This document shows, piece by piece, positions 2,786-24,419 of a DNA stretch of 64,000 nucleotides. Made by a program: the position numbers and the translations under genes. How positions within the stretch are numbered: position 1 is the stretch's first letter; each line of letters begins with the position of its first letter. The notes beneath the pieces were generated by a model. That model did not search any database. It saw only the letters and a program-made list of their open reading frames with translations, and was not told the origin of the DNA. The stretch covers positions 29,361 to 93,360 of the forward strand of contig JBBDUI010000002.1 in NCBI GenBank assembly GCA_040903985.1, given 5' to 3'. The DNA comes from Candidatus Saccharimonadales bacterium. Its GTDB lineage: Bacteria > Patescibacteriota > Saccharimonadia > QS-5-54-17.

Positions 2786-2829
2786 GCTCGCCTCCGATTT
2801 CCTCTAGTCGGAGGCGAGCATAGTTTTTC
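2786..2829 (+). terminator. Rho-independent terminator
   Basis: gctcgcctccga / tcggaggcgagc 12-bp stem followed by a T-rich run (atagttttt). Confidence 0.6.
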
Positions 2830-2917
2830 TTAATAACCGTTAGACTTGTAAATTAGCTCTGGAAATTATGGCCGATGTGCGCCATACTAGAATCAGAAAT
2901 TGGAGGAAAACTAACAC

Positions 2918-4360: not shown

Positions 4361-5684
4361 TAAGGTCAAACTCCCACCACAGAACGTACAGGCCGAGAGC
4401 AGCCTGCTCGGCAGTATCTTGATCGATCCAGAGGCACTAACTAAGATTGCCGATACCGTTCGGCCGGATGACTTCTACGAGCAGCGGCATAACCAAATAT
4501 TTACCGCCATGCTGCACCTCTATGAGCAGCGTAAGCCGATCGATGTCTTAACCCTCTCAGAGAAGTTGGAGACTAGTGGGAGCATTAAAGCGGTCGGGGG
4601 CTCCAGCTATATTACCGAATTAGCTAACTCGGTACCTAGCGCCGCCCACATCCATGAATATGGTGAGATTGTAGCCAAGAAGGCTACTCTGCGCCGTCTC
4701 ATTAGTGCGGCCCAGGAGATCACCAACCTCGGCTTTAGTGATGATGAGGATACAGATGCGTTAATCGATCAGGCTGAGCAACTGCTCTATGGGGTTTCTG
4801 AGAATAAAGGTCACACCGGCTTTCGCGCTATCGGGGACGTGTTAAATGAGAGTTTTGACCGGATTGAGGAGCTAAACAAAAACAAAGGTCAGCTCCGCGG
4901 GGTACCGACCGGTTTTAAGGGACTGGATAACAAGTTGGCCGGAATGCAGGACTCTGACCTACTTATCCTGGCCGCCCGTCCAGCTATGGGTAAGACGTCA
5001 TTTGCGCTTAATATCGCCCATAACGTAGCAGTTAAAGAGGGCATTCCAGTGGGTATCTTCAGTCTGGAAATGAGTCAGGAGCAGCTAGTCGATCGCTTAC
5101 TCAGTGCCGAGTCAGGAGTAGACTCCTGGAAACTGCGCACCGGAAATCTAGAAAATACCGACTTTGCCAAGATTGGGGAGGCGATGGGTGCTCTATCTGA
5201 GGCCCCAATCTTTATCGATGATACTCCGATGGCTAATGTCATGGACATGCGGACTAAGGCTAGGCGTATCCAGAGTGAGCACGGTCTCGGCCTGATCATC
5301 GTCGACTATTTACAGTTGATGAGCGGGCGCGGTAACTACGGTGAGAATCGAGTCCAAGAGGTTTCAGAAATCTCGCGGGGCTTGAAGGGCTTGGCGCGTG
5401 AGCTAAATGTTCCGGTTCTAGCTCTATCACAGCTTTCTCGTAGCGTAGAGTCACGCAGCCCGCAAATACCGCAGCTGGCCGACCTCCGTGAGTCCGGTTC
5501 GATTGAGCAGGATGCCGATGTAGTGATGTTTATCTATCGTGAAGAAGTCTACAACCCGGAAACCGACCGACAGAACATCGCCGACATACTAATTAAGAAG
5601 CACCGTAACGGGCCGATCGGTGAAGTCGAACTCTACTTCCATGCCGAGAAGACTCAGTTTCGATCAATCGAGCAGAACCGCTAG
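4353..5684 (+). CDS. dnaB: Replicative DNA helicase DnaB
   Basis: 443 aa with a DnaB N-terminal domain and a RecA-like C-terminal domain carrying Walker A (ARPAMGKTSFALN) and the helicase motifs. Overlaps dnaX by 8 nt. Confidence 0.93.
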   Translation: MADKVKLPPQNVQAESSLLGSILIDPEALTKIADTVRPDDFYEQRHNQIFTAMLHLYEQRKPIDVLTLSEKLETSGSIKAVGGSSYITELANSVPSAAHIHEYGEIVAKKATLRRLISAAQEITNLGFSDDEDTDALIDQAEQLLYGVSENKGHTGFRAIGDVLNESFDRIEELNKNKGQLRGVPTGFKGLDNKLAGMQDSDLLILAARPAMGKTSFALNIAHNVAVKEGIPVGIFSLEMSQEQLVDRLLSAESGVDSWKLRTGNLENTDFAKIGEAMGALSEAPIFIDDTPMANVMDMRTKARRIQSEHGLGLIIVDYLQLMSGRGNYGENRVQEVSEISRGLKGLARELNVPVLALSQLSRSVESRSPQIPQLADLRESGSIEQDADVVMFIYREEVYNPETDRQNIADILIKKHRNGPIGEVELYFHAEKTQFRSIEQNR

Positions 5685-5721
5685 CCATGTCTGCTATCTG
5701 CGCCACTAATTTGATTTACCG

Positions 5722-7353
5722 ATGAAGCTACTAGATAACACTTCCAGTCAGATAGAGCGCGGAAAACTCACCCTACCTAATCGTCGCCAAATCTGGAAGT
5801 GGGTGGAGCTAAAACGTGAGGAGCTAGGAGACTGGCTAGTTGCTAATCGCGAACTGACTTTACTAGTCAGTATTATAGTTCTAGCTGCTCTGTTTCGGCT
5901 CTGGCAGCTGCCAAGCCTGCCCTACGGCCTACATCCAGAGGAGGCCGCCAACGGTCTCGACGCTATCTCTATCTTGCAAGGAGATATCCAGCCCTTCTAC
6001 GAGTCTGCTGGGGGACGAGAGGGGCTGCTGTTCTACCTGCAGGCTCTAAGTGTAGCCATTTTTGGCCCTACTATGTTTGCCTTACGGCTGATGCCCGCCC
6101 TAGCTGGCATCGGAGCAGTATTCATGATTTATCTGGCAGGGCGGGTCTGGTTCTCCCGTCGGGTCGGGCTAATGGCTGCATTTTTTATGGCGATTTCGCC
6201 CTGGGCCATTCATATGAGTCGGCTAGCACTACCGGCAGCACTGCTGCTTCTTTTAGTGCCGACTATCCTCTGGCTGTCAGCACGGGCACTCCAGACTAAT
6301 AGAGCAGGCTGGTTTGTAGCTACCGGGGTCGCTATCGGCCTGGGCTTTTATGTTCAGCCGAGTTGGCACGTTTTGCCTTTAGCTCTCGCTCCACTCCTAC
6401 TCTTTAGTCGTTATTTTTATCGTTCTCAGCTTCGCCAGCTTTGGCAACCGCTCTTGATAGTCCTACTCAGTGTCCTGGTGACACTACTGCCTTTTGCTGC
6501 CTATATGGCGACTAACAGCTCCGCCTATTTTGAGCGGCCCACTACAAGTGTCTTTAATGCTGAGCAGCGTGATGAGCCGCTGGCTCAAGTTTTAGTCGAG
6601 TCGGTGGGGCGTACCGCGGGTATGTTCCATATAGCCGGAGATCGTAATCAGCTACATAATCTGCGCGGTGAGCCCCAGCTCACAGCCCTGGTCGGTGTAC
6701 TCTTCTTGCTAGGTCTTCTGTTGAGCTGGCGGCGGCGGCATGACATTCGCTACACGGCGCTGGTATCGCTACTTGCGGTCCTGCTACTACCGGCGGCACT
6801 AAGTATGGGAAATGTCGCTCCTAGCGCATTACGGGCGGTGGCGGCGGCTCCTATCATCTACATCTTAGCTGCTATTGGGCTGAGTGAGCTAATTGCCCGC
6901 TGGCGCGGTGTGTTTCCTCGTAACCCACTAGCACTTCACTTAGCTATAACCATCATCGTGGCCGCAGGTGCTATCACTACTATTTATAGCTATCAGCGTT
7001 ATTTTGTGGCCTGGGCTAATGCACCTCAGACTTTTACGGCCAGTTACGAGCCGATGCGGGCGGTAGCCGAGTTCATGCTGACTCACGATATCGACGGCAC
7101 TTACTTTGTGGTCGCTAGTGAATACCAAGTATTGTCGGTAAGCTTTTTAACCGACGGTAAGGTCGAGTACATCCAGGTCTCTCCACCGGATGCGGGCGAG
7201 GTCGAGTTAGCGGTCGGAGATAGGTTAATCGTGCCTTACCTTAACCGCGAGCAGGACATCGAGCTCGGAGCTGCTGCGCTCGATCAGGTAACCCAGATCT
7301 CTCGCTATCGCTCCGATACAGCTTTATTCACGCTGTATCGAGTGGAAGAGTAG
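5722..7353 (+). CDS. GT-C fold membrane glycosyltransferase, family 39 (PMT/ArnT-like)
   Basis: Polytopic membrane protein. The first periplasmic loop carries an acidic LHPEEAANG motif resembling the ArnT/PMT DE motif, followed by many TM helices and a C-terminal soluble domain. Confidence 0.65.
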   Translation: MKLLDNTSSQIERGKLTLPNRRQIWKWVELKREELGDWLVANRELTLLVSIIVLAALFRLWQLPSLPYGLHPEEAANGLDAISILQGDIQPFYESAGGREGLLFYLQALSVAIFGPTMFALRLMPALAGIGAVFMIYLAGRVWFSRRVGLMAAFFMAISPWAIHMSRLALPAALLLLLVPTILWLSARALQTNRAGWFVATGVAIGLGFYVQPSWHVLPLALAPLLLFSRYFYRSQLRQLWQPLLIVLLSVLVTLLPFAAYMATNSSAYFERPTTSVFNAEQRDEPLAQVLVESVGRTAGMFHIAGDRNQLHNLRGEPQLTALVGVLFLLGLLLSWRRRHDIRYTALVSLLAVLLLPAALSMGNVAPSALRAVAAAPIIYILAAIGLSELIARWRGVFPRNPLALHLAITIIVAAGAITTIYSYQRYFVAWANAPQTFTASYEPMRAVAEFMLTHDIDGTYFVVASEYQVLSVSFLTDGKVEYIQVSPPDAGEVELAVGDRLIVPYLNREQDIELGAAALDQVTQISRYRSDTALFTLYRVEE

Positions 7354-7415
7354 TCTATTATCCACTCATTTCGTCCGTAGGTTTGCTACAATAGGAGAGT
7401 ACTTAAATATATGAG

Positions 7416-7697
7416 GTGTTTCAGATGAATCCTAAGCAACTAATGCAATTACGCAAAATTCAAAAGGAACTGGCTCGCGAGGTGGTCGAGGTCGAGGCTG
7501 GCGATGGTGCCGTCAGAATCCAAATCAGCGGCGAGCAGAAGGTCAAAAGTGTGAAGATAGATCCTGACAAGGTGGCCGATACGACTAAACTTGAGAAGTG
7601 GCTGGAGTCGGCTATCACGCAAGCTATTACTAAGTCACAGCAGATCGCAGCCGATAAGATGAAGAGCGCCTCGGCCGGACTGAATCTCGGAATTTAA
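7416..7697 (+). CDS. ybaB: Nucleoid-associated protein YbaB/EbfC
   Basis: 93 aa with the YbaB-like pattern (MQLRKIQKEL...VEVEAGDGAVRIQISGEQKVKSVKIDP). Immediately upstream of recR, which is the conserved synteny. Confidence 0.85.
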   Translation: MFQMNPKQLMQLRKIQKELAREVVEVEAGDGAVRIQISGEQKVKSVKIDPDKVADTTKLEKWLESAITQAITKSQQIAADKMKSASAGLNLGI

Positions 7698-8284
7698 TGC
7701 TGCCCAAACCTCTAGAACTTCTGGTCTCTGAACTGAATAAGCTCCCCGGCGTCGGGCCTCGTACAGCCGAACGCTTAGCTATGTCGATTCTACGCCGTGG
7801 AGCCGGCGAAGCCAGTCAGCTCTCAGAGGCTTTGACGAGTCTGCACGCTAATATCGTCGAGTGCAGCCAGTGCCACAACCTTGCTAGTGAGCCACTTTGT
7901 TTTGTCTGTAGCGATCCGAAACGTAGTCGAGACGTGGTAGCGATAGTGGAAGACGCTCTAGACGTAGTAGCGCTAGAGCGGGCTGCCAGCTTTGACGGCG
8001 TATACCATGTCTTAGGTGGTATTATCTCTCCCGTCGATGGCATCGGCCCCGACCAGCTCAATCTTGCCTCATTGAAGCGGCGCGTAGAAGGGGGAGGTAT
8101 CGAAGAGTTGATTCTAGCTACTAACGCCAGTGTGGAAGGAGAAGCTACGGCACACTACATTCGTCGGTTCTTACCGGATATTAAGATTACTCGTCTAGCC
8201 CGTGGGCTGCCGATGGGCAGTGATCTGGAGTATGCCGATCAGACCACCCTAGTTCGGGCGCTAGAAGGACGGCAAACGGTATGA
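7697..8284 (+). CDS. recR: Recombination protein RecR
   Basis: HhH N-terminus (LPGVGPRTAERLA), C4 zinc finger (CSQCHNL...CFVC) and a Toprim domain. Start overlaps the ybaB stop (TAATG). Confidence 0.95.
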   Translation: MLPKPLELLVSELNKLPGVGPRTAERLAMSILRRGAGEASQLSEALTSLHANIVECSQCHNLASEPLCFVCSDPKRSRDVVAIVEDALDVVALERAASFDGVYHVLGGIISPVDGIGPDQLNLASLKRRVEGGGIEELILATNASVEGEATAHYIRRFLPDIKITRLARGLPMGSDLEYADQTTLVRALEGRQTV

Positions 8285-9282
8285 ACTATACTCCGGAACT
8301 TTTACTTCGCTTCGGCACATTGTTAGATGAAGCCAGTCATGTCGTGGTCATGCAAGCCGAGCATATCGATGCCGATAGCCTTGGCTCCAGTCTCGGTCTC
8401 GAAGCGGCTCTTACTAAGTTGGGCAAACAAGTTACACTCTACTGTCACGATGAAGTACCGAGCTACCTGAAACATTTTCCAGGACAGGACCGGGTGACGC
8501 AAAATCTACCAGGTAAATATGACCTGGCTATCCTGGTTGACTCTAGTACTCACAGTCAGATTGAGCGGACCTGGAGTGAGCATAAAGCCGCTCTCTCGCG
8601 CCGTCCTTTTGTCTGTATTGATCACCACGTCTCGACTAATAATCAGATCAATGGAGCCAACGTGCTGCTGCTGCTTGACGATACTGCCGGAGCTAGCGGC
8701 CAACAGGTAGTCGAGCTGGCGCAGCACTATGGCTGGGAGCTTGATGCTGAAGCTGCCTATGTCCTAGCCGCCGCCATCAAATCCGATACCGTTAATCTCT
8801 CTACTAGATATACCAGTGCCGCTACTTTTCGGGCGATGGCCTATCTAGTGGAACAAGGTGTAGATCTGGAGGAGCTCAGGCTCAACGTAGAGAAGGTCAG
8901 CAGTATCCCAGCCACCCAGTTGCATTTACGAGCCGAAGTATTAGCCCGTACTAGTTTTTTTAAGGATAATCAGATCGCCGTCACCTACTTTACCGCGGAG
9001 GAGTATAAGCTGCTAAGTGAGGACAAGCTATTGATCGAACGTACTAAGCATGAGTTGAGAACACTCCAGGAAGTCGAGATTGCCGTCGTTATCACCGAAC
9101 GTAAAGGCTACAGTAACGCTTCAATGCGAGCTAACGTTGGGGTAGCCCGGCTTACAGCTGAACATTTCGGGGGCGGGGGGCACGACAAGGCCGCTTCTTG
9201 TCGGTTTGAAAACGCCACTCACACTGAAGTCACCGAAGCTATCGTGCCAGTTATTGAGAGGCTACTGGATGAAGCTCTATAG
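8281..9282 (+). CDS. nrnA: DHH-family phosphoesterase (NrnA-like oligoribonuclease/pAp phosphatase)
   Basis: DHH motif (CIDHHVS) and DHHA1 GGGH motif (GGGGHDKAA). Overlaps the recR stop (ATGA). Confidence 0.8.
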   Translation: MNYTPELLLRFGTLLDEASHVVVMQAEHIDADSLGSSLGLEAALTKLGKQVTLYCHDEVPSYLKHFPGQDRVTQNLPGKYDLAILVDSSTHSQIERTWSEHKAALSRRPFVCIDHHVSTNNQINGANVLLLLDDTAGASGQQVVELAQHYGWELDAEAAYVLAAAIKSDTVNLSTRYTSAATFRAMAYLVEQGVDLEELRLNVEKVSSIPATQLHLRAEVLARTSFFKDNQIAVTYFTAEEYKLLSEDKLLIERTKHELRTLQEVEIAVVITERKGYSNASMRANVGVARLTAEHFGGGGHDKAASCRFENATHTEVTEAIVPVIERLLDEAL

Positions 9283-10642
9283 CACTCTAAACAAACAGGT
9301 TACAGAATTTAAGCCGCTTGCCCCCGGCAGGGTAAAGATGTTTGTCTGCGGCCCGACCGTTTACGAACTGTCCCATATCGGTCACGCTAAAACCTACATC
9401 CAGATGGACGTCCTAGCGCGAACTCTGCGCCGACTGGGCTACGAGCTGACCTACTTGCAAAACATTACCGACATCGACGACCGGATCATTACTCGAGCTT
9501 GGGAGCGGAGTGAGGACTGGCGAGAGCTGGCGAACCATTTTGAGGCAGAGTACCTAAAAGATATGACCACGCTTAACAATATGGCTGTCGATACTTACGC
9601 CAGAGCCACCGACCATATCGACGATATTATTCGTCAGGTGGAGGCGCTGATGACGAAGGGTCACGCCTACGAGATAGCAGATGATGGCATCTACTTCGAG
9701 ATCGCCACTTTTCCTGATTATGGTAAACTGTCCGGTCGTCAGCAGGTTGGTGAGCACGACTCACAAGCGCGAATTGATCAAAGTGAACATAAGCGTGGCT
9801 GGAACGATTTCTGTCTTTGGAAGTTCCACAAGCCTAATGAGCCGGCCTGGGATGCACCGTTTGGTAAGGGTAGGCCCGGCTGGCACATTGAGGATACGGC
9901 TATCAGTGAACACTACTTCGGACCCCAGTACGATATTCACGGCGGAGCCATCGATCTCATTTTTCCGCACCATGAGGCCGAGTTAACACAGATGGAGGCC
10001 ATTTCCGGTCTCACTCCGTTTGTCGGCTATTGGACGCACACCGGCTTTCTGCAGGTGGATGAGGAGAAGATGTCGAAGAGCTTAGATAACTTCTACACCA
10101 TCCAGGATGTAGTGGACCGAGGGTATGACCCGATGAGTTTACGTTTAGCTGTCCTACAATCACATTACCGCTCACCGATAAACTTTACCTGGGACACTCT
10201 CAAATCGGCTCACACCCGTCTGATGGATTTAAGGGCCATGGCCGATCTACGGTGGCAGCTGTATAAGGATGAGTCAGCCAACTCTGATATCAGCTTCGAT
10301 AAGTCGAGCGAATCTTTCCTGAATGCGATGGCTAACGACCTCAACTCGCCCCAGGCTCTGGCTCAAATAGCGAACGATGAAAGACTATTCGCCCAAAATC
10401 TGATCAGTGAGAGTCAGCAGGACGGTTTCATTAATTACTTACAGACCATTGATGATGTGCTAGGCCTAGGCCTACTTAGCTCTAGTGACATTACTGAGGA
10501 GCAGAAGGAACTACTGCAGCAGCGTGAACACGCCCGCACGGCGGCAGACTGGAAAGCAGCCGATCTAGCCCGAGACGAGTTAGCCAAGCACAACTTAGCC
10601 GTACGGGACACTCCGAAGGGTCAGGTCTGGGCGCGTACCTAG
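9269..10642 (+). CDS. cysS: Cysteine--tRNA ligase
   Basis: Class I HIGH motif (SHIGHAKTY) and KMSKS motif. N-terminus MKLYSTLNKQ..FKP is CysRS-like. The ORF-track start at 9206 is an upstream in-frame extension; the ATG at 9269 overlaps the nrnA stop. Confidence 0.9.
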   Translation: MKLYSTLNKQVTEFKPLAPGRVKMFVCGPTVYELSHIGHAKTYIQMDVLARTLRRLGYELTYLQNITDIDDRIITRAWERSEDWRELANHFEAEYLKDMTTLNNMAVDTYARATDHIDDIIRQVEALMTKGHAYEIADDGIYFEIATFPDYGKLSGRQQVGEHDSQARIDQSEHKRGWNDFCLWKFHKPNEPAWDAPFGKGRPGWHIEDTAISEHYFGPQYDIHGGAIDLIFPHHEAELTQMEAISGLTPFVGYWTHTGFLQVDEEKMSKSLDNFYTIQDVVDRGYDPMSLRLAVLQSHYRSPINFTWDTLKSAHTRLMDLRAMADLRWQLYKDESANSDISFDKSSESFLNAMANDLNSPQALAQIANDERLFAQNLISESQQDGFINYLQTIDDVLGLGLLSSSDITEEQKELLQQREHARTAADWKAADLARDELAKHNLAVRDTPKGQVWART

Positions 10643-10645
10643 TCT

Positions 10646-11701
10646 TTATCGGTGTGTGAGAGCTTCAGGCCCACCTTTTTCGATGTAGTAGTTAATCAAA
10701 ATCTTCAGACAGGCTCCGGCCGGTATGGCTAGAAGAGCACCGACGAAGCCAGCAATGTAAACCCCGACTAGGGCAGAGAGTAGCACAAAGAGCGGTGTCA
10801 TACTGATAGTGCGAGACTGAATGATCGGCTCAAATACGTTATTCTCGATTTGCTGATAGATGATATAGAAGATACCTAGCATGATAGCCGTCACTATAGA
10901 CTGCGAAAGTGCGACAGCGATGATTATTACCGCGCCTAATGTGTTCCCGATGAGTGGAATAAGTCCGGTCAGCCAGATGACCGCTGCCAGCGATACGGGC
11001 GCCGGCATACCTAGAATGGTTAGCAGGATTAAGGTAGTTGTAGCTGAGATCGAGGTGACGATCAACTGGCCGTTGACGAAGCCGGTTACCGCCTTATACA
11101 TCCGTGCAATTAAAGTGGCCCCACCTGAACGTAATCGTTTCGATAGTTGCCTAGATAGCCCATCGATCCATGTAGGCCCTTCTATAGTCAGATGGAAAGC
11201 TAGGGCCACGGTAAAGACGAGCAGTAAGAGGTTAGAGAGCAGTCGATTAATCAGACCTATAACAGTGCCGGAAGAGGCAGCTAAGCCGGTAGCTACATTG
11301 CTCATCAGTGTTTCGATACTACCCACTAAATCGACGCTATTAAGCCAGCGACTCAAGGTGCCCTCACCCATTTGCAGCTCATCTAGATAGCTCGGCAACT
11401 GCACGGCTAACTCACGACCTTGAGTGCTAATGACCGGCACTATCAGTGCCACAATTAAGCTAACTATCAGACCGATCAGTATGAATACTAGAGTGGTAGC
11501 CAGCCTGCGATTTTCACCCGGCATGTAAGGGCTTAGACGATTCACTGGCCCGTTGACGGCTATGGCGATGAAGCCAGCTACCACGAAGACGCCTAAAGCC
11601 GATCGGATATGGTAGAGCACTAGGGCTGCAGCTACTAGCAATAAAACGACACCTAAACGCCGGATAATACTTTCGGTCGATATGTCGATCGTTACCGTCA
11701 C
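10646..11701 (-). CDS. AI-2E family transporter (PerM/YhhT-like) paralog 1
   Basis: 351 aa polytopic membrane protein with the conserved FVNGQLI and GLIPLIG...GAV motifs of the AI-2E/UPF0118 family. Confidence 0.85.
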   Translation of the reverse strand: MTVTIDISTESIIRRLGVVLLLVAAALVLYHIRSALGVFVVAGFIAIAVNGPVNRLSPYMPGENRRLATTLVFILIGLIVSLIVALIVPVISTQGRELAVQLPSYLDELQMGEGTLSRWLNSVDLVGSIETLMSNVATGLAASSGTVIGLINRLLSNLLLLVFTVALAFHLTIEGPTWIDGLSRQLSKRLRSGGATLIARMYKAVTGFVNGQLIVTSISATTTLILLTILGMPAPVSLAAVIWLTGLIPLIGNTLGAVIIIAVALSQSIVTAIMLGIFYIIYQQIENNVFEPIIQSRTISMTPLFVLLSALVGVYIAGFVGALLAIPAGACLKILINYYIEKGGPEALTHR

Positions 11702-11710
11702 GGCATCGAC

Positions 11711-12793
11711 CTAACTGTGGGCCAGATTGTGCTGTTCTAAGTAGTCAATGACGAGAATGCGGATACAGCCAGCGATCGGGATGGCCAGCAGTCCACCTAA
11801 GATACCGGCCAGCGTGATACCGACAACGACCGAGGCCAGAATTAAGAGCGGTGACATACCCAGTGATTTAGACTGAATAGCTGGCTGGATGACGTTATTC
11901 TCAACTTGCTGGTAGGCGACGAAGTAGATAGTTAGAATCAGTGCGACTGTGACTGATTCGAATAGTCCAACTGCGATGACCAGTACCGCACCTAGTGTCG
12001 CACCGATGACCGGGATAATGCCTAAGACCGCCACGATACCGGCCAGCGAGAGGGCAAAGGGCACACCCAAGATAGCCAGTATGATGAAGGTGGCTACACC
12101 GTTGATGGAAGCGATAATGAGCTGACCGTTGACGAAGCTCGTGATGACGTTATACATGCGCTGTACCAGCTTCTTACGGTGCTTGCGATTCCCCTTAGGC
12201 TGTAGCTCCCAGAACTTCTTCACCCATTTCGGCCCTTCGACTAGCATGAAGAAGGTGAGGACTAGTACAGTTAGGGTTGATACCAGGTTAGAGAAGACGC
12301 GTTCTAGCACTGTGATCACCGGTTCACCGGCACCCGATACCCGGTTTAGCACGCTGTCCTGTAGATTGCCCGTTCCTTCGTCTAGATCGTAGTAGTTGAC
12401 CACAGTACCTAAGAATCCATCAGCTTCCTGCAGCTCCTCTATGTAGTCAGGAAAGCTCTCGACAAGTTGTACGGTCTGACGCACGATTGGTGGCATTAGT
12501 GAGGTAGCTAGGATAACGACTAAGGAAATAGCTAGGATATAGACCGCGCCAGTAGCTAAGCCACGACTCTTCCGCGGCATTTTCCGCACCAGAAAGTTTA
12601 CGGCCGGCGAGAGGGCAATAGCTAAGAAGAAAGCGACTAAGATCAGCATTAGAGCGTGACGAGTAGCTAGGACTAGCTGTACGGCCAGCACGAAGCCGAG
12701 GCCGATCGCAAAGACACGGAAGATAGTGCGGTTACTAACGTCGACCTTTAGTTGCATAAGTTCACTCAACTTTTTCATTCCCTCTAGTATCAC
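11711..12793 (-). CDS. AI-2E family transporter paralog 2
   Basis: 360 aa with the same motif set (FVNGQLIIASI, GIIPVIGATLGAV) and clear paralogy to the adjacent gene. Confidence 0.85.
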   Translation of the reverse strand: MILEGMKKLSELMQLKVDVSNRTIFRVFAIGLGFVLAVQLVLATRHALMLILVAFFLAIALSPAVNFLVRKMPRKSRGLATGAVYILAISLVVILATSLMPPIVRQTVQLVESFPDYIEELQEADGFLGTVVNYYDLDEGTGNLQDSVLNRVSGAGEPVITVLERVFSNLVSTLTVLVLTFFMLVEGPKWVKKFWELQPKGNRKHRKKLVQRMYNVITSFVNGQLIIASINGVATFIILAILGVPFALSLAGIVAVLGIIPVIGATLGAVLVIAVGLFESVTVALILTIYFVAYQQVENNVIQPAIQSKSLGMSPLLILASVVVGITLAGILGGLLAIPIAGCIRILVIDYLEQHNLAHS

Positions 12794-13214: not shown

Positions 13215-13289
13215 TGGGGAGTGGCCAAGTGGTAAGGCACCAGTTTTTGGTACTGGCATTCGGGGGTTCGAATCCCTCCTCCCCAGCCA
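13215..13289 (+). tRNA. tRNA-Gln (anticodon TTG), encoded CCA
   Basis: Hand-folded cloverleaf: acceptor TGGGGAG/CTCCCCA, D-arm GCCA-AGTGGTAA-GGCA, anticodon stem CCAGT/ACTGG with loop TTTTGGT, T-arm GGGGG-TTCGAAT-CCCTC, discriminator G, CCA. Very close to E. coli tRNA-Gln. Confidence 0.9.
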
Positions 13290-13441: not shown

Positions 13442-13462
13442 CGAATCCCTCCTCCCCAGCCA
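13442..13462 (+). repeat. Exact 21-nt direct repeat of the tRNA-Gln 3' end (cgaatccctcctccccagcca = 13269-13289)
   Basis: Identical 21-mer found 173 nt downstream of the tRNA. Resembles an att-type duplication of a tRNA 3' end. Confidence 0.7.
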
Positions 13463-13928: not shown

Positions 13929-13957
13929 AAGTTGCGAAGTTCATCCACTAAGGGCAG
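13929..13957 (+). repeat. 29-nt exact direct repeat, copy 1 (AAGTTGCGAAGTTCATCCACTAAGGGCAG)
   Basis: Identical to 14280-14308. Lies about 40 nt upstream of the probable start of the next small gene. Confidence 0.85.
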
Positions 13958-13996
13958 CCATATTTGAGTTTAATTACATTCTGTTATTATATACAT

Positions 13997-14279: not shown

Positions 14280-14308
14280 AAGTTGCGAAGTTCATCCACT
14301 AAGGGCAG
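14280..14308 (+). repeat. 29-nt exact direct repeat, copy 2
   Basis: Identical to 13929-13957. Lies 43 nt upstream of the start of the YunG-like gene. Confidence 0.85.
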
Positions 14309-14350
14309 TCAAGCATAAGCACCACGATAGACTTATCCGGAAAACCCTTT

Positions 14351-16980: not shown

Positions 16981-17682
16981 TTGGGCTTAACAATAGTCGA
17001 CAAAAATAATTTTTATGTCTCCGGAACCTCTATCGCTGTCTCCTGGTCGGCTAATACTCAGGTTGGAGATATGATCTTGCTGATTGGGGTAATCAATAGT
17101 TCCGCTTCTTTTGATGTGAACGGATGGAATTTTACTTATGGCAGGGGAAGTTCAAGAACGGCAGTAATCTTAAGGAAGTTTGCTACTTCTTCTGGCACCA
17201 ATGATTACACCTGGTCAGGATGGAATTCTTCACAAGTAAGAGTAACTACAGTAACCTTGCGCAGTACAGATGAGTACAATATAACCCGAAACTACTCTGG
17301 TGAAGATATCAGCTCTGCAAACCTGGCGGGAGAGTGGGGGAATAGTGGAGTGGCATTTATTGCTGCAGCCGATACAACAGGCTTAACCCACACAACTCCT
17401 AGTCCTAGCTACTTTGGATTTGCCTCCCCTGAGATTACTGGATACTCAGGGCCGCATACCGACCCTACTGACGGATACAGTGTAAGTTTTAACAGTAGCA
17501 ACAATGCCATTGCGTCAATTGTCGTGCAATCTAGCAATAACACCACGCCGAGTCTTCCTGTACTCACTAACCCTGAGACCGCTCGCTATCAAGGTGCTTT
17601 TAATCTTGGCTGGACTTTTAATGATGCAGACGAGGATGATTCACAGTCTTCTTATTACCTAAGAATCAAGAGAAGACCGTAG
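16981..17682 (+). CDS. Modular repeat protein 1 (233 aa). The C-terminus carries the first half of the shared SDxDxDxQxxYxLRxxK module.
   Basis: TTG start with aggag RBS. C-terminal LGWTFNDADEDDSQSSYYLRIKRR matches the module FEWSYSDPESGAQSAWALKRQK in gene 2 and FSWSHSDPDGDAQASYALRRQK in gene 3. No signal peptide. The stop overlaps the next start (TAGTG). Confidence 0.55.
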   Translation: MGLTIVDKNNFYVSGTSIAVSWSANTQVGDMILLIGVINSSASFDVNGWNFTYGRGSSRTAVILRKFATSSGTNDYTWSGWNSSQVRVTTVTLRSTDEYNITRNYSGEDISSANLAGEWGNSGVAFIAAADTTGLTHTTPSPSYFGFASPEITGYSGPHTDPTDGYSVSFNSSNNAIASIVVQSSNNTTPSLPVLTNPETARYQGAFNLGWTFNDADEDDSQSSYYLRIKRRP

Positions 17683-20600
17683 TGGCTGAATATTATGTAG
17701 GGTCGTTTACCAAGCAGAATATGACTGGCAATCAGGCTTTTACCGGTATTGGATTTACTCCAAAAGCGATTATTTTCTGGAGCGCAGGTGAAGCACCAAC
17801 AGCAAATGGAACATGGGGCGATCATTTATACCATACAGTAGGATTTACCTCCGGCCCGACTGAGTCTTATTCAGTATCGGGTGCATCACAGGATGCAGTT
17901 GGTACTTCGAATTCTTCTAGATCAATAGCTGCAAAGTGCATACATCGGTCTAGTGTGAGTAGCGGGACTCGTGATGAAGCGGATCTGTCTTCTTTTGATG
18001 CTGATGGCTTCACGGTTAACTGGACTACCAGTTCTGGAGCTACTTCTCCAGAAATAATGTTCCTTGCTATTGGTGGGGATGATGTCTTGGCTAGAGCAGT
18101 AAACTGGACTTCACCGACATCTACGGGTAGTAAGCCGGTGACCGGGGTAGGATTCACTTCGGATCTCGTCCTACACACCCATTCGGGTTCAGCAGGCGCA
18201 CTACCCATCTCTTCACCATTAATGTACGGAAATATTGGTGCAATGGACTCATCAGGGAACGAATGGGTTAACAGTATCTATACCCAAGACGCCCAAACCA
18301 CTTCTAATACTGCGCGATACCAGCGCACAGATAAGTGTCTCGCATTTTCTGATAGTACGGGTGTCAATGAAGAAGCGAACTATGCCAGTATGGACGCCGA
18401 TGGCTTCACACTCAACTTTACATCTGCACTATCTTCCGCGTATCAGTGTATCTCCTTATGTCTGTCGGGTATCTCTGCTAGATCAGGTTCTTTTACACCT
18501 AATTCATCAACCTATTCGGTCTCAGGAGTAGGCTTCCGTCCTGAGGCTATGCTCTTTTCGATGACATATCAGCAGCCTAGCACGCCTCAGCCCAATGCGG
18601 CTTGGTCGCTTGGTGCAAGTGATGGTACTAATCATAGGGCCGTAGGTGTCGACGATGAAGATGCGCTTAGCACCACCTCGGCAGGCTCGATTTGGAGCAA
18701 CTCAGTGGTTGCTTACAATAGTGAAACTGCAAGTTATAGGTTTGATAGGAAGAATACTGTAGCACTTGACTCTTTTGACTCAGATGGCTTTACAACTAGT
18801 AAAGTTGGTGGAGCACAAAGTGAAACCTTATTTCTTGCTCTTGGCACACCAAACGATCCACCAAGCACAACGGCTTTGGCTCCGATAGACAGGACAGCAG
18901 TTAATCTAACCGAGGGTGTAGACTTTGAATGGAGCTACTCCGACCCAGAGAGTGGCGCACAAAGTGCATGGGCACTTAAGCGCCAGAAAGATAATGGGGA
19001 TGGCACCACCGATAGTGAAGAGTGGTGGCGGAATGAGGCATTAGATAATTGGAATAACCCGACACTAAACCCACCAGCTACTATGGGAGCATCTCCGGCT
19101 TCAACTGCTACAGCCTATTCGAATCAGCGTAAAATTGATCGAACTCAAAACGGTGTACTGTGGGCTATGTACTACAACTCAAGCAATGGTGCTATTTATG
19201 ATAAATACTCCACTGATAATGGTCAGACATGGACTACTGGTGTCCTACCATTTTTGTCGGGCGGAACCATAAGCTACACAGGTAACTTCTCGTTTTTTAT
19301 TGATATCGATGATTACTGCCATATTGTTTATAAAAATCCTTTCGACGGTTTTATCTACTACAAGAGAGGAATACCCGACGATGCTTCTCGCACTGCGTAC
19401 ACTTGGAGTAGTGCATTTGCAGTTCAGAACACTGATATATATTCAGACTACCCAGATATAATTGCTTTTCGCACCCCGGGATCAAGTCCTATAACTTGGG
19501 AAGTATGCATAGTAGCCTCTTGGACGAATGGTACGCTATTCGCTCAATACGAAAGACTGCATATAGCCAGTGACGGGTCTATAACTGGCGGCAATAATGA
19601 TGGTCTTTCACAAAACCAAGGTATGGCCATGCTGAGCAGCGCTACTTACAGCACTAGTACACATGCATACCCGTCTATAGATTTTAATCATACTGGTGAT
19701 GGTAAGACTGTAGCCGATAATACGCCACACTTGTACTCTACATGGTCGACCGGTGCTACAGGTTCAGGTAGAGGTATTAGGTTTAAGAAGGCGACTCATT
19801 CAGGTGGATCGTGGTTATGGGGCACAGAACGGGAGATCTCCTCAACTCACTATGTTGCTGCTCATAATTACTGTAACTGTATTTTTGATGGTACAAGAGT
19901 TATCATTGGGGGCAATCTTAACGATGGCGGATATTACAGTGTGGTTTTTTGGGAGCGGGACGCTGCAGATACTGTTACAACAGGCCCGATTTATGTGTTA
20001 GATAATGGAACTTCCGGGAATGACACATCAAGCTTTGCGGCACGAGGGTCAGTTACATATGATGCTGACGGTAACCTATACTTCATCGGTCTTGGGGCAG
20101 GCTCGCCCTGGAGGGTATGTCTCCAGAAGTGGGATCGGGCCACCGAGTCTGTAGAAGATCCTGTAGTTATTGATGAGTTAAATATAAACTCCTACGGTAG
20201 TGATGTCTCTCTCAAGCGCGGCTACTCTAACAACCGTATAGAATTTATCTATACTGACGGTACCAGTTCACCATACGACGTAACGTATGGCAGCATCGAG
20301 CAGCAGACTCTCCCCATTGGCTGGATAGATAGCGAAGTCTGGAACGATGGAGATGATACTTCAGTTAGTATCTCCAACTGGAGTAACGATGATGATACCT
20401 ATACTTGGAGTGTAGCCACCAAAGATGATGTTGGTAGTGCCAGTTCCTATACCACCGCCAGGACCCTTAACCCCTTCCAGTGGTGGGATGCTTCTACTTC
20501 TTCCTGGGTATATATCGAAACAGAAAACATATCCTCAGACACCGAGGTAGCTGTAGCTAACCTTTCTGCTGGTAGCTATAAGTGGAGTGTAGCTACAGAG

Positions 20601-20687
20601 GACAGTGCTGGTGCTAAAAGCAGCTATGCTACTGAACAGACGTTTGAGATTATTCGTTTTGAGCGTTGGGGTGTGGTGCAGATTTAA
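17682..20687 (+). CDS. Large modular repeat protein 2 (1001 aa): three N-terminal ~130-aa tandem repeats, a BNR/Asp-box region, and C-terminal fn3-like modules ending in FEIIRFERWGVVQI
   Basis: GTG start overlapping the upstream stop. Repeats carry FDADGFT/MDADGFT/FDSDGFT. A canonical Asp-box YSTDNGQTWT sits near aa 505. Repeated YTWSVATKDDVGSASSY / YKWSVATEDSAGAKSSY modules. No signal peptide. Thr/Ser/Gly-rich. Confidence 0.7.
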   Translation: MAEYYVGSFTKQNMTGNQAFTGIGFTPKAIIFWSAGEAPTANGTWGDHLYHTVGFTSGPTESYSVSGASQDAVGTSNSSRSIAAKCIHRSSVSSGTRDEADLSSFDADGFTVNWTTSSGATSPEIMFLAIGGDDVLARAVNWTSPTSTGSKPVTGVGFTSDLVLHTHSGSAGALPISSPLMYGNIGAMDSSGNEWVNSIYTQDAQTTSNTARYQRTDKCLAFSDSTGVNEEANYASMDADGFTLNFTSALSSAYQCISLCLSGISARSGSFTPNSSTYSVSGVGFRPEAMLFSMTYQQPSTPQPNAAWSLGASDGTNHRAVGVDDEDALSTTSAGSIWSNSVVAYNSETASYRFDRKNTVALDSFDSDGFTTSKVGGAQSETLFLALGTPNDPPSTTALAPIDRTAVNLTEGVDFEWSYSDPESGAQSAWALKRQKDNGDGTTDSEEWWRNEALDNWNNPTLNPPATMGASPASTATAYSNQRKIDRTQNGVLWAMYYNSSNGAIYDKYSTDNGQTWTTGVLPFLSGGTISYTGNFSFFIDIDDYCHIVYKNPFDGFIYYKRGIPDDASRTAYTWSSAFAVQNTDIYSDYPDIIAFRTPGSSPITWEVCIVASWTNGTLFAQYERLHIASDGSITGGNNDGLSQNQGMAMLSSATYSTSTHAYPSIDFNHTGDGKTVADNTPHLYSTWSTGATGSGRGIRFKKATHSGGSWLWGTEREISSTHYVAAHNYCNCIFDGTRVIIGGNLNDGGYYSVVFWERDAADTVTTGPIYVLDNGTSGNDTSSFAARGSVTYDADGNLYFIGLGAGSPWRVCLQKWDRATESVEDPVVIDELNINSYGSDVSLKRGYSNNRIEFIYTDGTSSPYDVTYGSIEQQTLPIGWIDSEVWNDGDDTSVSISNWSNDDDTYTWSVATKDDVGSASSYTTARTLNPFQWWDASTSSWVYIETENISSDTEVAVANLSAGSYKWSVATEDSAGAKSSYATEQTFEIIRFERWGVVQI

Positions 20688-21688
20688 TGGCAACAGTAAC
20701 ATACGCCTCTACCGGCACCTTTTCTGTACCTGCGAATGTTTATAGCGTCCACCTTGATTGTTATGGGCATCCAGGTGGAGCCTACAGCTATAATACTCGC
20801 GGAGGCCGTGCCTACGGGGACCTTGTTGTTACTCCAGGGGAGACCTTATATATTGGGGTAAATATAGGGGCTGGCACCACCACCTCCGGCGGTAGTGGTG
20901 CTGCTTATTCCTGGGGTGGTGGATATTCGGATGTTCGTAAGGGCGGAAACACGCTTAGCAATCAAAGAGTTGTTGCGGGTGGCGGCGGCGGCCAGTCTTA
21001 TACTTACACAGGGAAAGGTGGTAACGGTGGTGGTTCTTCCGGTGGAAGCGGTTCTACATCGCAGGGTGGTTCAGTTGGTGGTGGTGGAACCCAGTCTTCT
21101 GGAGGTTCTGCCTCGGGTAACGCTACCGTAGGAACCCGGGGACAGGGAGGTAACGGTGGCAGCAGTGGCGGGGCTGGCGGCGGCGGTTACTATGGTGGAG
21201 GAGGTGGCTATAATTATGCAGGTGGTGGAGGTGGCTCTGGGTATATAGGGGGAGTAACCGGCGGAAGTTATAGTACAGGGGGGAATCCAGACAACTCAGC
21301 TAAAGTAGTAATAACTTATACTCCTAACTCTATCCCTTCGACTCCAACTCCCTCAACGCCAACCAGCGGTTTGCGACAACAGGATGGCAGTATTAACTTC
21401 TCCTGGTCCCATTCCGATCCTGATGGAGATGCTCAGGCTTCCTACGCTCTGCGTAGGCAAAAGAGCGGTGGTGGTAACGAATGGTGGGATGGTACTTCCT
21501 GGGTGATAAGTGAAACGTTTGTGTCTACATCTACTCAATCAGTTTCTATTAATACTTCAACATTTGATCCTGGTGCCTACACCTGGAGCGTAGCTACCCG
21601 AGATAGCGTCGGTGCTACATCACCATATTCTTCTGCCAGAACAGTAGAGATTATTCGTTTTGAACGTTGGGGGGTGGTGCAGATATGA
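20687..21688 (+). CDS. Glycine-rich domain protein 3 (Gly_rich-like N-terminus) with the same C-terminal module and the identical tail EIIRFERWGVVQI
   Basis: ATG overlaps the upstream TAA (TAATG). N-terminus ATVTYASTGTFSVPANVYSVHLDCYGHPGG then GGxGG tracts (GGGGGQSY..GGNGGGSSGGSGS..GGGGYYGGGGGYNYAGGGGGSGY). C-terminal module NFSWSHSDPDGDAQASYALRRQK...YTWSVATRDSVGATSPY...EIIRFERWGVVQI. Confidence 0.7.
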   Translation: MATVTYASTGTFSVPANVYSVHLDCYGHPGGAYSYNTRGGRAYGDLVVTPGETLYIGVNIGAGTTTSGGSGAAYSWGGGYSDVRKGGNTLSNQRVVAGGGGGQSYTYTGKGGNGGGSSGGSGSTSQGGSVGGGGTQSSGGSASGNATVGTRGQGGNGGSSGGAGGGGYYGGGGGYNYAGGGGGSGYIGGVTGGSYSTGGNPDNSAKVVITYTPNSIPSTPTPSTPTSGLRQQDGSINFSWSHSDPDGDAQASYALRRQKSGGGNEWWDGTSWVISETFVSTSTQSVSINTSTFDPGAYTWSVATRDSVGATSPYSSARTVEIIRFERWGVVQI

Positions 21689-21889
21689 TCCTTCTTTCGG
21701 ACATGTAATTCCTAGTTTCTAGCACCTTAACGACTGAAGTAGTGTAAGCCTGATGGATGCCCTTTATGGATATTCGTAACAGGTACACTCTCTGGTGGCT
21801 CCGATAGTACTAATGGCACTTACTTCTAGGAGAAGTTGCAAAGTTCCCGATTTTTCATATATGATAATTATCAAATACGAAGGGATTGC

Positions 21890-22215: not shown

Positions 22216-22569
22216 TTACTCCTCCCGTAGTATCTTCTCCATCACCTTGCCTTTAGCTAGCTCATCAATTAGCTTATCCAAATATCGGATCTCTTGCATT
22301 AAGGGCTCTTCGATATCTTCTACGCGGATACCGCAAATCATACCCGTAATCAAACTTCTAGAAGGGTTCATCTTCGGAGCGGCGGCAAAGAAGGTTTCGA
22401 AGTCTGTCTGGTTTTCTAGCAGCACCTCTAACTCTTGCGGACTGTAGCCTGTTAACCAGCGAATGATTTCGTCTACCTCTGCCTTTGTGCGACCCTTCTT
22501 CTCGGCCTTTTTGATGTAGTGAGGGTAGACACTAGAGAAGCTCATGGTGTAGATGCGATGTTTTTTCAT
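22216..22569 (-). CDS. DUF2200 family protein
   Basis: N-terminus [42 protein letters not shown] is characteristic of the DUF2200 family. Confidence 0.75.
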
Positions 22570-24368: not shown

Positions 24369-24419
24369 CTAGTGAGTCATAGCTTTCCCCTTTGCTAGCT
24401 CATCGATCAGCTTATCTAG
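24369..24419 (-). pseudogene. Remnant of the 3' end of a second DUF2200 gene (encodes ...[16 protein letters not shown]), preceded by an in-frame stop
   Basis: Minus-strand translation matches the C-terminus of the DUF2200 protein at 22216-22569 ([16 protein letters not shown]). Nucleotide similarity is about 80% over about 30 nt. Only 17 codons are open. Confidence 0.5.

What the first reader, a model, noticed from the sequence alone, without database searches (positions are those of the whole stretch)
20600..21688. Identical C-terminal 13-aa tail encoded by near-identical DNA in two adjacent genes (not a DGR signature)
Nucleotides 20645-20687 (gagattattcgttttgagcgttggggtgtggtgcagattta) and 21646-21688 (gagattattcgttttgaacgttggggggtggtgcagatatg) are nearly identical while the upstream module DNA is only about 70% identical. 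A conserved extreme C-terminus (-EIIRFERWGVVQI-COOH) on otherwise diverged paralogs suggests a functional tag. It could be a sorting or secretion signal, an assembly or beta-augmentation strand, an intramolecular-chaperone remnant, or a gene-conversion tract. The substitutions are not adenine-specific, and no reverse transcriptase is present in the window, which argues against a diversity-generating retroelement.
Basis: seen in the sequence. Interest (0 to 1): 0.55.

Follow-up and report, generated by a model that had tools for sequence, protein, structure and literature searches.

The report
Shared C-terminal tag on phage-fibre-like proteins
Two neighbouring genes of an uncultured Saccharimonadales bacterium end in the same short peptide, which also ends diverged relatives in uncultured phages and sits in gene arrays where one fibronectin-type domain is split between two genes.

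Summary
Gene A (17682-20687) and gene B (20687-21688) both end in EIIRFERWGVVQI. The 38 nt encoding it differ at 2 positions, against about 60% identity just upstream.

The first two residues belong to the last strand of an FN3 domain, so the true appendix is 11 aa (IRFERWGVVQI).

It is not a local accident:
- Two more proteins 150 kb away in the same genome end in ..FERWGAVQI.
- About 20 diverged proteins from metagenomic and viral contigs (45-68% GC) end in a related motif, core [WF]-G-x(1-3)-I-COOH.
- The motif follows FN3, a beta-propeller or a repeat domain, so it is a portable C-terminal tag.

Relatives lie in phage tail and baseplate gene clusters. Codon comparison shows peptide-level selection plus modest homogenisation within a locus. 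There is no DGR pattern, RNA structure or sorting-signal anatomy.

My best reading (about 0.4) is a docking or assembly peptide that fixes modular glycan-binding heads to a common partner. This is inferred, and no partner was identified.

A side finding is stronger. In all 12 distinct arrays with such a downstream gene (15 loci), an upstream gene ends after FN3 strands A-B-C, and the next gene ends with strands C'-E-F-G plus the tail. This split FN3 occurs here between ORF1 and gene A.

The parts
16981..17682 (+). ORF1 (233 aa, TTG start with an AGGAG 6 nt upstream). It has an N-terminal 'GDxxLL' domain shared with P0005, P0017, P0030 and P0154. It ends in half an FN3 domain.
   Evidence: Homologues place the GD(M/L)(I/L)L motif about 30 aa from the start. 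This favours TTG 16981 over the 203-aa database call.
17593..17670 (+). Opening half of a split FN3 (strands A-B-C, profile positions 10-34 of 98). It is followed by KRRP and the stop.
   Evidence: hmmsearch, E 1.6e-5. The same truncation ends every upstream gene of the 12 distinct split arrays found in 15 loci, L005-L009, L011-L015, L017, L019, L020 and L024.
17668..17684 (+). Junction between ORF1 and gene A: AAG AGA AGA CCG TAG with the overlapping GTG. The purine-rich K-R-R codons double as the ribosome-binding site of gene A.
   Evidence: Relatives have AAG CGG AGG CCG TAG..ATG (GGAGG). Gene A's frame is closed 4-15 codons upstream and there is no slippery heptamer, so the two products are separate polypeptides.
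17682..20687 (+). Gene A (1001 aa, GTG start). It has an N-terminal triple repeat domain, a nested split FN3 that carries a beta-propeller, a closing half FN3 and the tail.
   Evidence: Its N-terminus VAEYYVGSF..GIGFTPKAII aligns with the N-termini of P0156 and P0169.
18909..19040 (+). Inner FN3, opening part (aa 410-453, profile positions 9-47).
19074..20291 (+). Beta-propeller with one Asp-box (aa about 465-870), inserted in the inner FN3. It is 46% identical to the stand-alone protein C508 of the second locus.
   Evidence: The fold resembles PLL/PHL lectins, sialidases and PL24/25 lyases.
20322..20471 (+). Inner FN3, closing part (aa 881-930, profile positions 48-97).
20478..20651 (+). Closing half of the outer split FN3 (strands C'-E-F-G, aa 933-990, profile positions 41-98). 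It complements the half domain at the end of ORF1.
20652..20684 (+). Tail of gene A, IRFERWGVVQI.
20687..21688 (+). Gene B (333 aa). It has an ALK/LTK-type glycine-rich domain (aa 1 to about 215), a complete FN3 (aa 225-322, nt 21359-21652) and the tail.
21653..21685 (+). Tail of gene B, IRFERWGVVQI.
   Evidence: In the AlphaFold2 model it is coil, and pLDDT falls from 98 to 51.

Best explanation
The 11-aa appendix (IRFERWGVVQI; family core [WF]-G-x(1-3)-I-COOH) is a portable C-terminal docking or assembly peptide of phage-tail-type modular proteins.

Each unit carries a variable head and one common foot. The head is a glycine-rich TNF-like domain, a lectin- or sialidase-like propeller, or a repeat domain. 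The foot is usually an FN3 domain followed by the tail.

I infer that the free C-terminus, with its invariant Gly and terminal Ile, inserts into a pocket or beta-sheet edge of a shared partner. That would fix different heads to the same structure.

In the window there are two such units:
- ORF1 plus gene A. I infer these are joined by reconstitution of an FN3 that is split between the two genes.
- Gene B.

Shown:
- The tail is conserved in distant relatives.
- It occurs after different preceding domains.
- Relatives lie in phage tail clusters.
- Selection acts at the peptide level.
- The tail is not packed in cis in the model.

Inferred:
- That the tail docks.
- What it docks to.
- That the split FN3 halves reassemble.
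For: Conservation within the genome. Two more proteins on the same contig (L002: C508 ..KIIRFERWGAVQI and P0005 ..EVIKFERWGAVQI) keep the peptide. Their codons diverge as elsewhere in these genes: the same codon is used at 4/9 to 5/10 identical residues between loci, against a background of 0.39-0.48.

Conservation outside the genome. Related tails end proteins from independent contigs of 45-68% GC:
- ..GGFERWGAVFI..IFERFGSNFI..VERFGNFI..PREGWGGINI..REGWGQTFI..PFGGWGQAI..RFVGWGVPI
- P0154 and P0172 ..FERWGAVFI
- the IMG/VR contig L025 ..GGFERWGAVFI

In a 12-sequence alignment the tail's Gly and last Ile are invariant.

Portability. The tail also directly follows non-FN3 domains: the repeat domain in P0156, P0160 and P0169 (..GGWGFPA..FIGWGIPI..FAGWGIPL) and the propeller in P0179 (..NRWGIIPI).

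Alternative tails. At the same position other lineages carry different tails, namely (W[ND]GxAWV)x3..YVPQIML and ..REKMKARGFNI. This is as expected of lineage-specific connectors.

Phage context of relatives:
- L015 runs tube, gpD, V, gp25, Baseplate_J, a 'TVDID' protein, X, the tail-bearing Y, Tail_P2_I, lysis genes and replication genes.
- L005 has a tail sheath and minor tail proteins.
- L017 has lysis genes.

Heads are binding or enzyme folds: the ALK/LTK TG domain and a propeller like lectins, sialidases and lyases.

Structure model. In the AlphaFold2 model of gene B the FN3 has pLDDT 96-98. The tail is coil with pLDDT falling to 51, so it is not confidently packed on its own protein.

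Tails match within a locus:
- VVQI twice in the window.
- AVQI twice in L002.
- GGWG twice in L010.
This fits a shared partner encoded in the same genome.
Against: - No partner was identified.
- The window holds no baseplate gene and no 'TVDID' homologue. What the tail would dock to in this bacterium is therefore unknown.
- Known phage fibre anchors are N-terminal, not C-terminal.
- Low model confidence for the tail is weak evidence. The alignment over the tail is shallow, and monomer models cannot show oligomeric packing.
- Matching tails within a locus could come from gene conversion rather than co-evolution with a partner.
- The family has no cultured or structurally solved member to lean on.
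Confidence: 0.4

Rival explanations
1. The tail acts within its own protein or homo-oligomer. It could be a cap on the FN3 pole, or a short strand that zips three copies together, as in trimeric fibre proteins. It would not be a docking peptide for a different partner.
For: Phage fibre and spike proteins are commonly trimers (general knowledge). The tail leaves the FN3 at the pole that also carries the C-C' loop. It is hydrophobic and strand-prone. The monomer model cannot show such packing.
Against: The tail follows three unrelated domain types (FN3, propeller, repeat domain). A cis cap would have to fit all three. Other lineages replace it with quite different tails at the same position.
Confidence: 0.2
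2. The conservation is partly at the nucleic-acid level. The tail-coding stretch would serve as a homology patch for exchanging or converting head modules between neighbouring genes or between phages. Alternatively it carries the ribosome-binding site of a translationally coupled downstream gene.
For: - Same-codon use in the tail is higher within loci than the background of 0.39-0.48: A versus B 9/12 (P = 0.013-0.056), and C508 versus P0005 7/9 (P = 0.02).
- TGG GGN GTG is G-rich and lies 9-13 nt before the next start where genes overlap: window A/B, L006, L007, L015 and L016.
- At the ORF1 end, the K-R-R codons clearly double as a ribosome-binding site.
Against: - Between loci the codons diverge normally while the peptide stays.
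- ..ERFG.. variants lack the G-run.
- The tail is equally conserved where no gene follows closely: gene B 199 nt, C508 62 nt, P0005 123 nt, L005 84 nt.
- A ribosome-binding site does not explain the invariant terminal Ile.
- There is no RNA structure: z = 0.28 and 1.10.
Confidence: 0.1
3. In the bacterium the tail is an export or surface-sorting signal for proteins that lack a signal peptide.
For: None of ORF1, gene A or gene B has an N-terminal signal peptide, yet their folds are extracellular types. The second locus lies beside tatA and tatC.
Against: - The tail has no sorting-signal anatomy: no LPXTG, no hydrophobic helix with a basic end, and no roughly 80-aa T9SS domain.
- The same tail occurs in phage genomes, whose virion proteins leave by lysis.
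- Tat signals are N-terminal.
- No secretion genes flank the cluster.
Confidence: 0.07
4. The tail is a recognition site for a C-terminal processing or tail-specific protease, or a degron that controls the level of unassembled subunits.
For: The invariant hydrophobic last residue at a fixed distance from W-G resembles peptides read through their free carboxylate by PDZ-type domains (general knowledge; not tested here).
Against: No protease gene is linked in the loci examined, except unrelated lysis peptidases. There is no evidence of cleavage.
Confidence: 0.05
5. The identity comes from a recent duplication or gene-conversion tract with no function of its own.
For: The genes are adjacent, the repeat is direct with a 1001-bp spacing, and the DNA is near-identical.
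Against: The tail is conserved across very distant relatives and after different domains, with synonymous divergence. The longest run of perfect identity is 17 nt.
Confidence: 0.03

Closest known systems
Anchor-and-branch attachment of multiple receptor-binding proteins in phages (for example CBA120 tailspikes, G7C gp63.1/gp66, Klebsiella phage depolymerases). Recalled from general knowledge, not tested here.
   Same: Several different binding or enzymatic heads are encoded in tandem and mounted on one tail structure through short conserved attachment modules.
   Different: Known anchors are N-terminal domains. Here the conserved element is an FN3 plus an 11-aa C-terminal peptide. No sequence relative exists among 50,697 deposited phage records.
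Engineered split FN3 (monobody) fragment complementation at the C-D loop
   Same: An FN3 cut between strands C and C'/D reassembles from two peptides. That loop is reported as the most efficient split site (PMC11666773, citing Dutta et al. 2005, PMC2253215). The natural split here lies in the same loop, at profile positions 35|39-41.
   Different: That system is man-made. Here the two halves are the C-termini of two natural gene products, each carrying large domains. Their reassembly is inferred, not shown.
Donor-strand complementation in chaperone-usher pili
   Same: An incomplete immunoglobulin-like fold in one polypeptide is completed by strands from another. This links subunits without a covalent bond.
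   Different: Pilins lack one strand and receive an N-terminal extension. Here three of seven strands come from the partner, and no chaperone or usher is present.
Dockerin-cohesin assembly of cellulosomes
   Same: Diverse heads share a C-terminal docking module that targets them to a common scaffold, with lineage-specific pairing.
   Different: A dockerin is a calcium-binding domain of about 70 aa. This tail is 11 aa, and no receptor module has been identified.
C-terminal sorting signals (LPXTG, PEP-CTERM, GlyGly-CTERM, T9SS CTD)
   Same: They are conserved extreme C-termini on otherwise unrelated proteins of one genome.
   Different: Here there is no signature motif, no hydrophobic helix plus basic end, no 80-aa domain, no N-terminal signal peptide and no linked sorting enzyme.

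Membership tests
Diversity-generating retroelement (variable or template repeat) | Differences between the repeat copies are confined to adenines of the template copy | tested here: not met
   The 120-nt repeat has 35 mismatches. At those sites copy A has A 12, G 10, T 8, C 5, and copy B has C 15, A 9, G 6, T 5.
Diversity-generating retroelement (variable or template repeat) | A reverse transcriptase gene nearby | tested here: inconclusive
   No RT domain was found in the 24 window ORFs scanned. The ORFs beyond 26 kb were not scanned.
Fibronectin type III fold (domain preceding the tail) | A seven-strand beta-sandwich recognisable by profile and by structure | tested here: met
   A family profile covers gene B aa 225-322 (143 bits). 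The AlphaFold2 model has pLDDT 96-98. Foldseek matches titin, Robo3 and Eph FN3 domains. Pfam gives only Ig_Rha78A_N, below its cut-off (24.3 against 27.4 bits).
ALK/LTK glycine-rich (TG) domain, PF12810 (gene B head) | Pfam score above the gathering cut-off, and the TNF-like/glycine-rich fold | tested here: met
   28.1 bits against a cut-off of 24.5. The top Foldseek hits are ALK/LTK TG domains, E 3e-5.
Phage tail fibre or baseplate-associated module | Encoded among tail or baseplate genes of a phage | tested here: inconclusive
   Met in relatives: L015 lies between Baseplate_J and Tail_P2_I, L005 has a tail sheath, and L025 is an IMG/VR contig. Not met in the window, which has no tail, baseplate, capsid or integrase gene within the 12-26 kb examined.
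Cell-surface sorting signals (LPXTG, PEP-CTERM, GlyGly-CTERM, T9SS CTD) | A signature motif followed by a hydrophobic helix and a basic end, or a CTD domain of about 80 aa, together with an N-terminal signal peptide | tested here: not met
   The tail is 11 aa, IRFERWGVVQI, with no such motif or helix. The N-termini MATVTYAST.., VAEYYVGSF.. and MGLTIVDKN.. are not signal peptides (read directly).
Intramolecular chaperone of tailspikes and fibres (Peptidase_S74 / CIMCD) | A C-terminal domain of about 150 aa that cleaves itself off | tested here: not met
   There is no Pfam hit, and only 11 aa follow the FN3.
Chaperone-usher donor-strand complementation | A pilin fold lacking the G strand, an N-terminal donor extension, and linked chaperone and usher genes | tested here: not met
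   The split lies between strands C and C', the pieces are C-terminal, and no chaperone or usher gene is present.
Split-FN3 two-gene architecture (defined here) | An upstream gene ending at profile position 34-35, with the next gene starting within 3 nt and ending with positions 39/41-98 | tested here: met
   ORF1 aa 205-230 covers positions 10-34, and gene A aa 933-990 covers positions 41-98. The same pattern holds in all 12 distinct arrays, spread over 15 other loci. Physical reassembly of the halves was not testable here.

The most novel reading that the evidence does not exclude
The FN3-plus-tail is a universal foot. These phages, and a Saccharimonadales episymbiont that has kept the genes without any phage tail, build branched multi-headed adhesin complexes from it. 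They do so by nesting whole genes inside the C-C' loop of that FN3. The domain is then encoded in two pieces on two polypeptides and reassembles in trans, as a natural split FN3. The 11-aa tail plugs the assembled unit into a common receptor. In the bacterium the set would be a domesticated, phage-derived device for attaching to its actinobacterial host.
Probability: 0.12. Interest if true: 0.85.

Novelty: new variant of a known kind. Interest (0 to 1): 0.6.

Why it matters
If the tail is a docking peptide, it marks a previously undescribed attachment system for receptor-binding modules in a group of uncultured phages. It would also give a simple handle, an 11-aa peptide, for finding the partner.

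The split FN3 would be a natural case of protein-fragment complementation, used to join the products of two neighbouring genes. Its nested, balanced arrangement shows how new heads can be added to an existing anchor without disturbing it.

Finding the modules in a Saccharimonadales chromosome with no phage tail genes beside them raises two possibilities. These episymbionts may reuse phage receptor-binding parts, or the genes may be prophage debris. Either can be tested.

Tried and rejected
- Word-index protein searches with the C-terminal 121 aa and with a 12-sequence alignment found nothing. Only the exhaustive HMMER search and a full-length gene A query worked.
- The exact back-translated tail RFERWGVVQI is absent from IMG/VR and from 185,579 GTDB species genomes.
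- The type-2 junction alignment found no relatives in IMG/VR or GTDB and only 4 loci in JGI metagenomes.
- There is no match in deposited phage genomes or in PDB sequences.
Trans-complementation could therefore not be modelled.
- The model of gene A aa 395-1001 gave a confident propeller but low confidence (30-63) for all FN3 fragments. It neither supports nor contradicts the nesting.
- A programmed frameshift fusing ORF1 to gene A was considered and rejected. There is no slippery site, and in relatives the downstream frame is closed 4-5 codons upstream.
- A DGR was rejected.
- An RNA structure was rejected.
- Promoter and terminator scans were at chance level.
- I considered a link between the tail and the W[ND]GxxW motif, which is both the FN3 C' strand motif and DUF2510-like. 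The resemblance (W-G-x-x-hydrophobic-I against W-D-G-x-x-W-V) is suggestive but was not tested.


Full report
**Observation.** Nucleotides 20646-20684 and 21647-21685 both encode EIIRFERWGVVQI followed by a stop.
- A degenerate 38-nt pattern with up to 3 mismatches hits only these two sites in the window. Shuffles expect 0.00.
- The copies differ at 3 of 39 positions, all synonymous.
- The 77 nt just upstream are 60% identical. Further upstream the genes align only with gaps.

Three + strand genes are translationally coupled:

| Gene | Coordinates | Length | Junction with next gene |
|---|---|---|---|
| ORF1 | 16981-17682 | 233 aa | TAGTG |
| Gene A | 17682-20687 | 1001 aa, GTG start | TAATG |
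| Gene B | 20687-21688 | 333 aa | none |

**Source.** The window is a chromosome. DnaX, DnaB, RecR and CysS lie upstream, and tRNA-Gln is at 13215-13289. It comes from a MAG named Candidatus Saccharimonadales bacterium, GCA_040876815.1, on a 739-kb contig.

**What the proteins are.**
- Gene B has an ALK/LTK-type glycine-rich domain (PF12810, above its cut-off; phrog_7388) and a complete FN3.
- The AlphaFold2 model has mean pLDDT 85.6, with 96-98 for the FN3. The last strand ends at aa 322.
- Residues 323-333 are coil, and confidence falls to 51. The true appendix is therefore 11 aa, IRFERWGVVQI.
- Foldseek confirms the ALK/LTK TG domain and the FN3.
- Gene A carries a triple N-terminal repeat domain. 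It also carries a propeller with one Asp-box. That propeller is 46% identical to a stand-alone protein of a second locus, and its fold resembles lectins, sialidases and polysaccharide lyases.

**Is the tail conserved elsewhere?** Yes.

An exhaustive HMMER search of 1.84 billion representatives and a search with gene A recovered about 20 proteins with related C-termini:

| Tail | Carried by |
|---|---|
| ..EVIKFERWGAVQI | P0005 |
| ..KIIRFERWGAVQI | C508 |
| ..FERWGAVFI | P0032, P0154, P0172, and L025 from IMG/VR |
| ..IFERFGSNFI, ..VERFGNFI | P0017, P0053 |
| ..PREGWGGINI, ..PREGWGTVLI, ..REGWGQTFI | P0030, P0070, the 775-aa protein of L005 |
| ..PFGGWGQAI, ..RFVGWGVPI | P0094, P0143 |
| ..GGWGFPA, ..FIGWGIPI, ..FAGWGIPL, ..NRWGIIPI | P0156/P0170, P0160, P0169, P0179 |

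- P0005 and C508 lie 150 kb away on the same contig as the window.
- In a 12-sequence alignment the Gly and the last Ile are invariant.
- The last four tails in the table directly follow a repeat domain or the propeller, not an FN3. The tail is therefore a portable tag.
- Other lineages carry different tails at the same position: three W[ND]GxAWV repeats (DUF2510-like)..YVPQIML and ..REKMKARGFNI.

**DNA-level or peptide-level constraint?**
- At residues that are identical between copies, the same codon is used in 39-48% of cases in the FN3 part.
- Between loci the tail shows the same rate, 4/9 to 5/10. The peptide is therefore what is conserved.
- Within loci there is a modest excess: A versus B 9/12 (P = 0.013-0.056), and C508 versus P0005 7/9 (P = 0.02).
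- Tail variants also match within a locus: VVQI in the window, AVQI in L002, GGWG in L010.
- This points to local homogenisation or a shared partner.
- Substitutions are not adenine-specific.
- The tail regions form no unusual RNA structure.
- A role purely as the ribosome-binding site of the next gene is unlikely, because the tail is equally conserved where no gene follows closely.

**Context of relatives.**
- L015 is a contractile-tailed phage. Its order is tube, gpD, V, gp25, Baseplate_J, a 'TVDID' protein, X, the tail-bearing Y (P0154) and Tail_P2_I, followed by lysis and replication genes.
- L005 has a tail sheath and minor tail proteins.
- L017 has lysis genes next to the tail-bearing gene.
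- L025 and L019/L020/L024 are IMG/VR contigs.
- The 'TVDID' protein (C-terminus ..TVDIDxVGS..GADLTVxVRYxRA) accompanies the tail proteins in L002, L005, L008, L010, L015 and L016.
- The window has no 'TVDID', baseplate or other phage gene near the cluster.
- The family is absent from 50,697 deposited phage genomes, from the GTDB species genomes by the patterns tried, and from the PDB.

**Split FN3, found on the way.**
- ORF1 ends ..FNLGWTFNDADEDDSQSSYYLRIKRRP-stop. That is FN3 strands A-B-C.
- A profile of complete FN3 domains of this family (98 positions) shows that every such upstream gene X ends at position 34-35, 2-3 residues before its stop.
- The next gene Y starts within 3 nt. It ends with positions 39/41-98 and then a tail.
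- This holds for the window and for L005-L009, L011-L015, L017 and L019/L020/L024. These form 12 distinct arrays, because L019, L020 and L024 are near-identical to each other, as may be L011 and L012.
- All of them have the upstream half. Proteins with a complete terminal FN3 (gene B, C508, P0005, P0094) do not.
- The last codons of X (AAG CGG AGG CCG TAG, or AAG AGA AGA CCG TAG) double as the ribosome-binding site of Y.
- There is no slippery sequence, and Y's frame is closed just upstream. X and Y are therefore separate polypeptides.
- Gene A shows a second, in-frame level of the same nesting. Aa 410-453 cover positions 9-47, the propeller follows, and aa 881-930 cover positions 48-97. Then aa 933-990 cover positions 41-98 and close ORF1's half.
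- P0172 (L017) has the identical two-level arrangement.
- The halves pair like balanced brackets and are conserved from 45% to 68% GC. This argues that they fold together.
- Engineered FN3 domains split in this same loop reassemble from two peptides (PMC11666773, citing PMC2253215).
- I could not model the complex.

**Interpretation.** Each unit carries variable heads and one foot, the FN3 (whole or reassembled) plus the tail.
- I take the tail to be a docking or assembly peptide read through its free hydrophobic C-terminus (confidence 0.4).
- Rivals are a cis or homo-oligomeric structural role (0.2), a nucleic-acid-level role (0.1), an export signal (0.07), a protease or degron signal (0.05) and a functionless conversion tract (0.03).

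**Novelty.**
- The tail is a new variant of terminal attachment tags.
- The split, nested FN3 across genes appears to be undescribed.
- Neither has a characterised relative.

Noticed in passing
window 17593-17682 with 20478-20651; also L005-L009, L011-L015, L017, L019, L020, L024: An FN3 domain is split between two adjacent genes. The upstream gene ends after strands A-B-C, and the downstream gene ends with C'-E-F-G. All 12 distinct arrays, found in 15 loci, show this. Gene A and P0172 contain a second, in-frame nested level with a propeller inserted in the inner FN3.
   Followed up: yes
L002 (same contig as the window, about 150 kb away) 2787-12391: This is a second locus of the same MAG. It holds two more tail-bearing proteins (C508 at 8412-9938 and P0005 at 10001-10978) and two 'MPRLP..' fibre-like proteins (2787-3770 and 11102-12391). 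tatA and tatC are interspersed, and no other phage genes were seen.
   Followed up: partly
L002 11102-12391; L005 8887-9465; L008 2-697; L010 8429-9355; L015 4888-5877; L016 9332-9997: A protein with the conserved C-terminus ..TVDIDxVGS..GADLTVxVRYxRA (no Pfam family, phrog_27064) lies next to the tail-bearing genes in six loci, just after Baseplate_J in L015. It is a candidate partner. It is absent from the window.
   Followed up: partly
window 17682 and 16981: Database gene starts look too short. Gene A is called as 988 aa from ATG 17721, but homologues conserve the N-terminus from GTG 17682. ORF1 is called as 203 aa from ATG 17071, but the conserved GDxxLL motif and an AGGAG favour TTG 16981.
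   Followed up: partly
window 13269-13289 and 13442-13462: The last 21 nt of tRNA-Gln are repeated exactly 173 bp downstream, like a leftover attachment-site duplication. From about 13.3 to 24.5 kb the GC content is lower (0.40-0.46) than in the flanks.
   Followed up: no
window 13929-13960 and 14280-14311: A 32-nt direct repeat (97% identical) flanks a small ORF between the SET-domain and YunG genes.
   Followed up: no
window 21684-21707: Gene B's stop overlaps an ATG (ATATGA) that opens only a 7-codon ORF (MILLSDM). In relatives (L007, L016) a downstream gene starts in exactly this 4-nt overlap. This may be the vestige of a lost downstream gene.
   Followed up: partly
L012 6451-7872; L014 4845-6284; L019 5128-; P0168, P0158/P0159, P0163-P0165: Other lineages carry alternative C-terminal tails at the same position: three W[ND]GxAWV repeats (weak DUF2510 match), ..YVPQIML and ..DLYREKMKARGFNI.
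   Followed up: partly
window 22240-22278 and 24378-24416: A 39-nt direct repeat (79% identical) lies in or near two otherwise unrelated genes downstream of the cluster.
   Followed up: no
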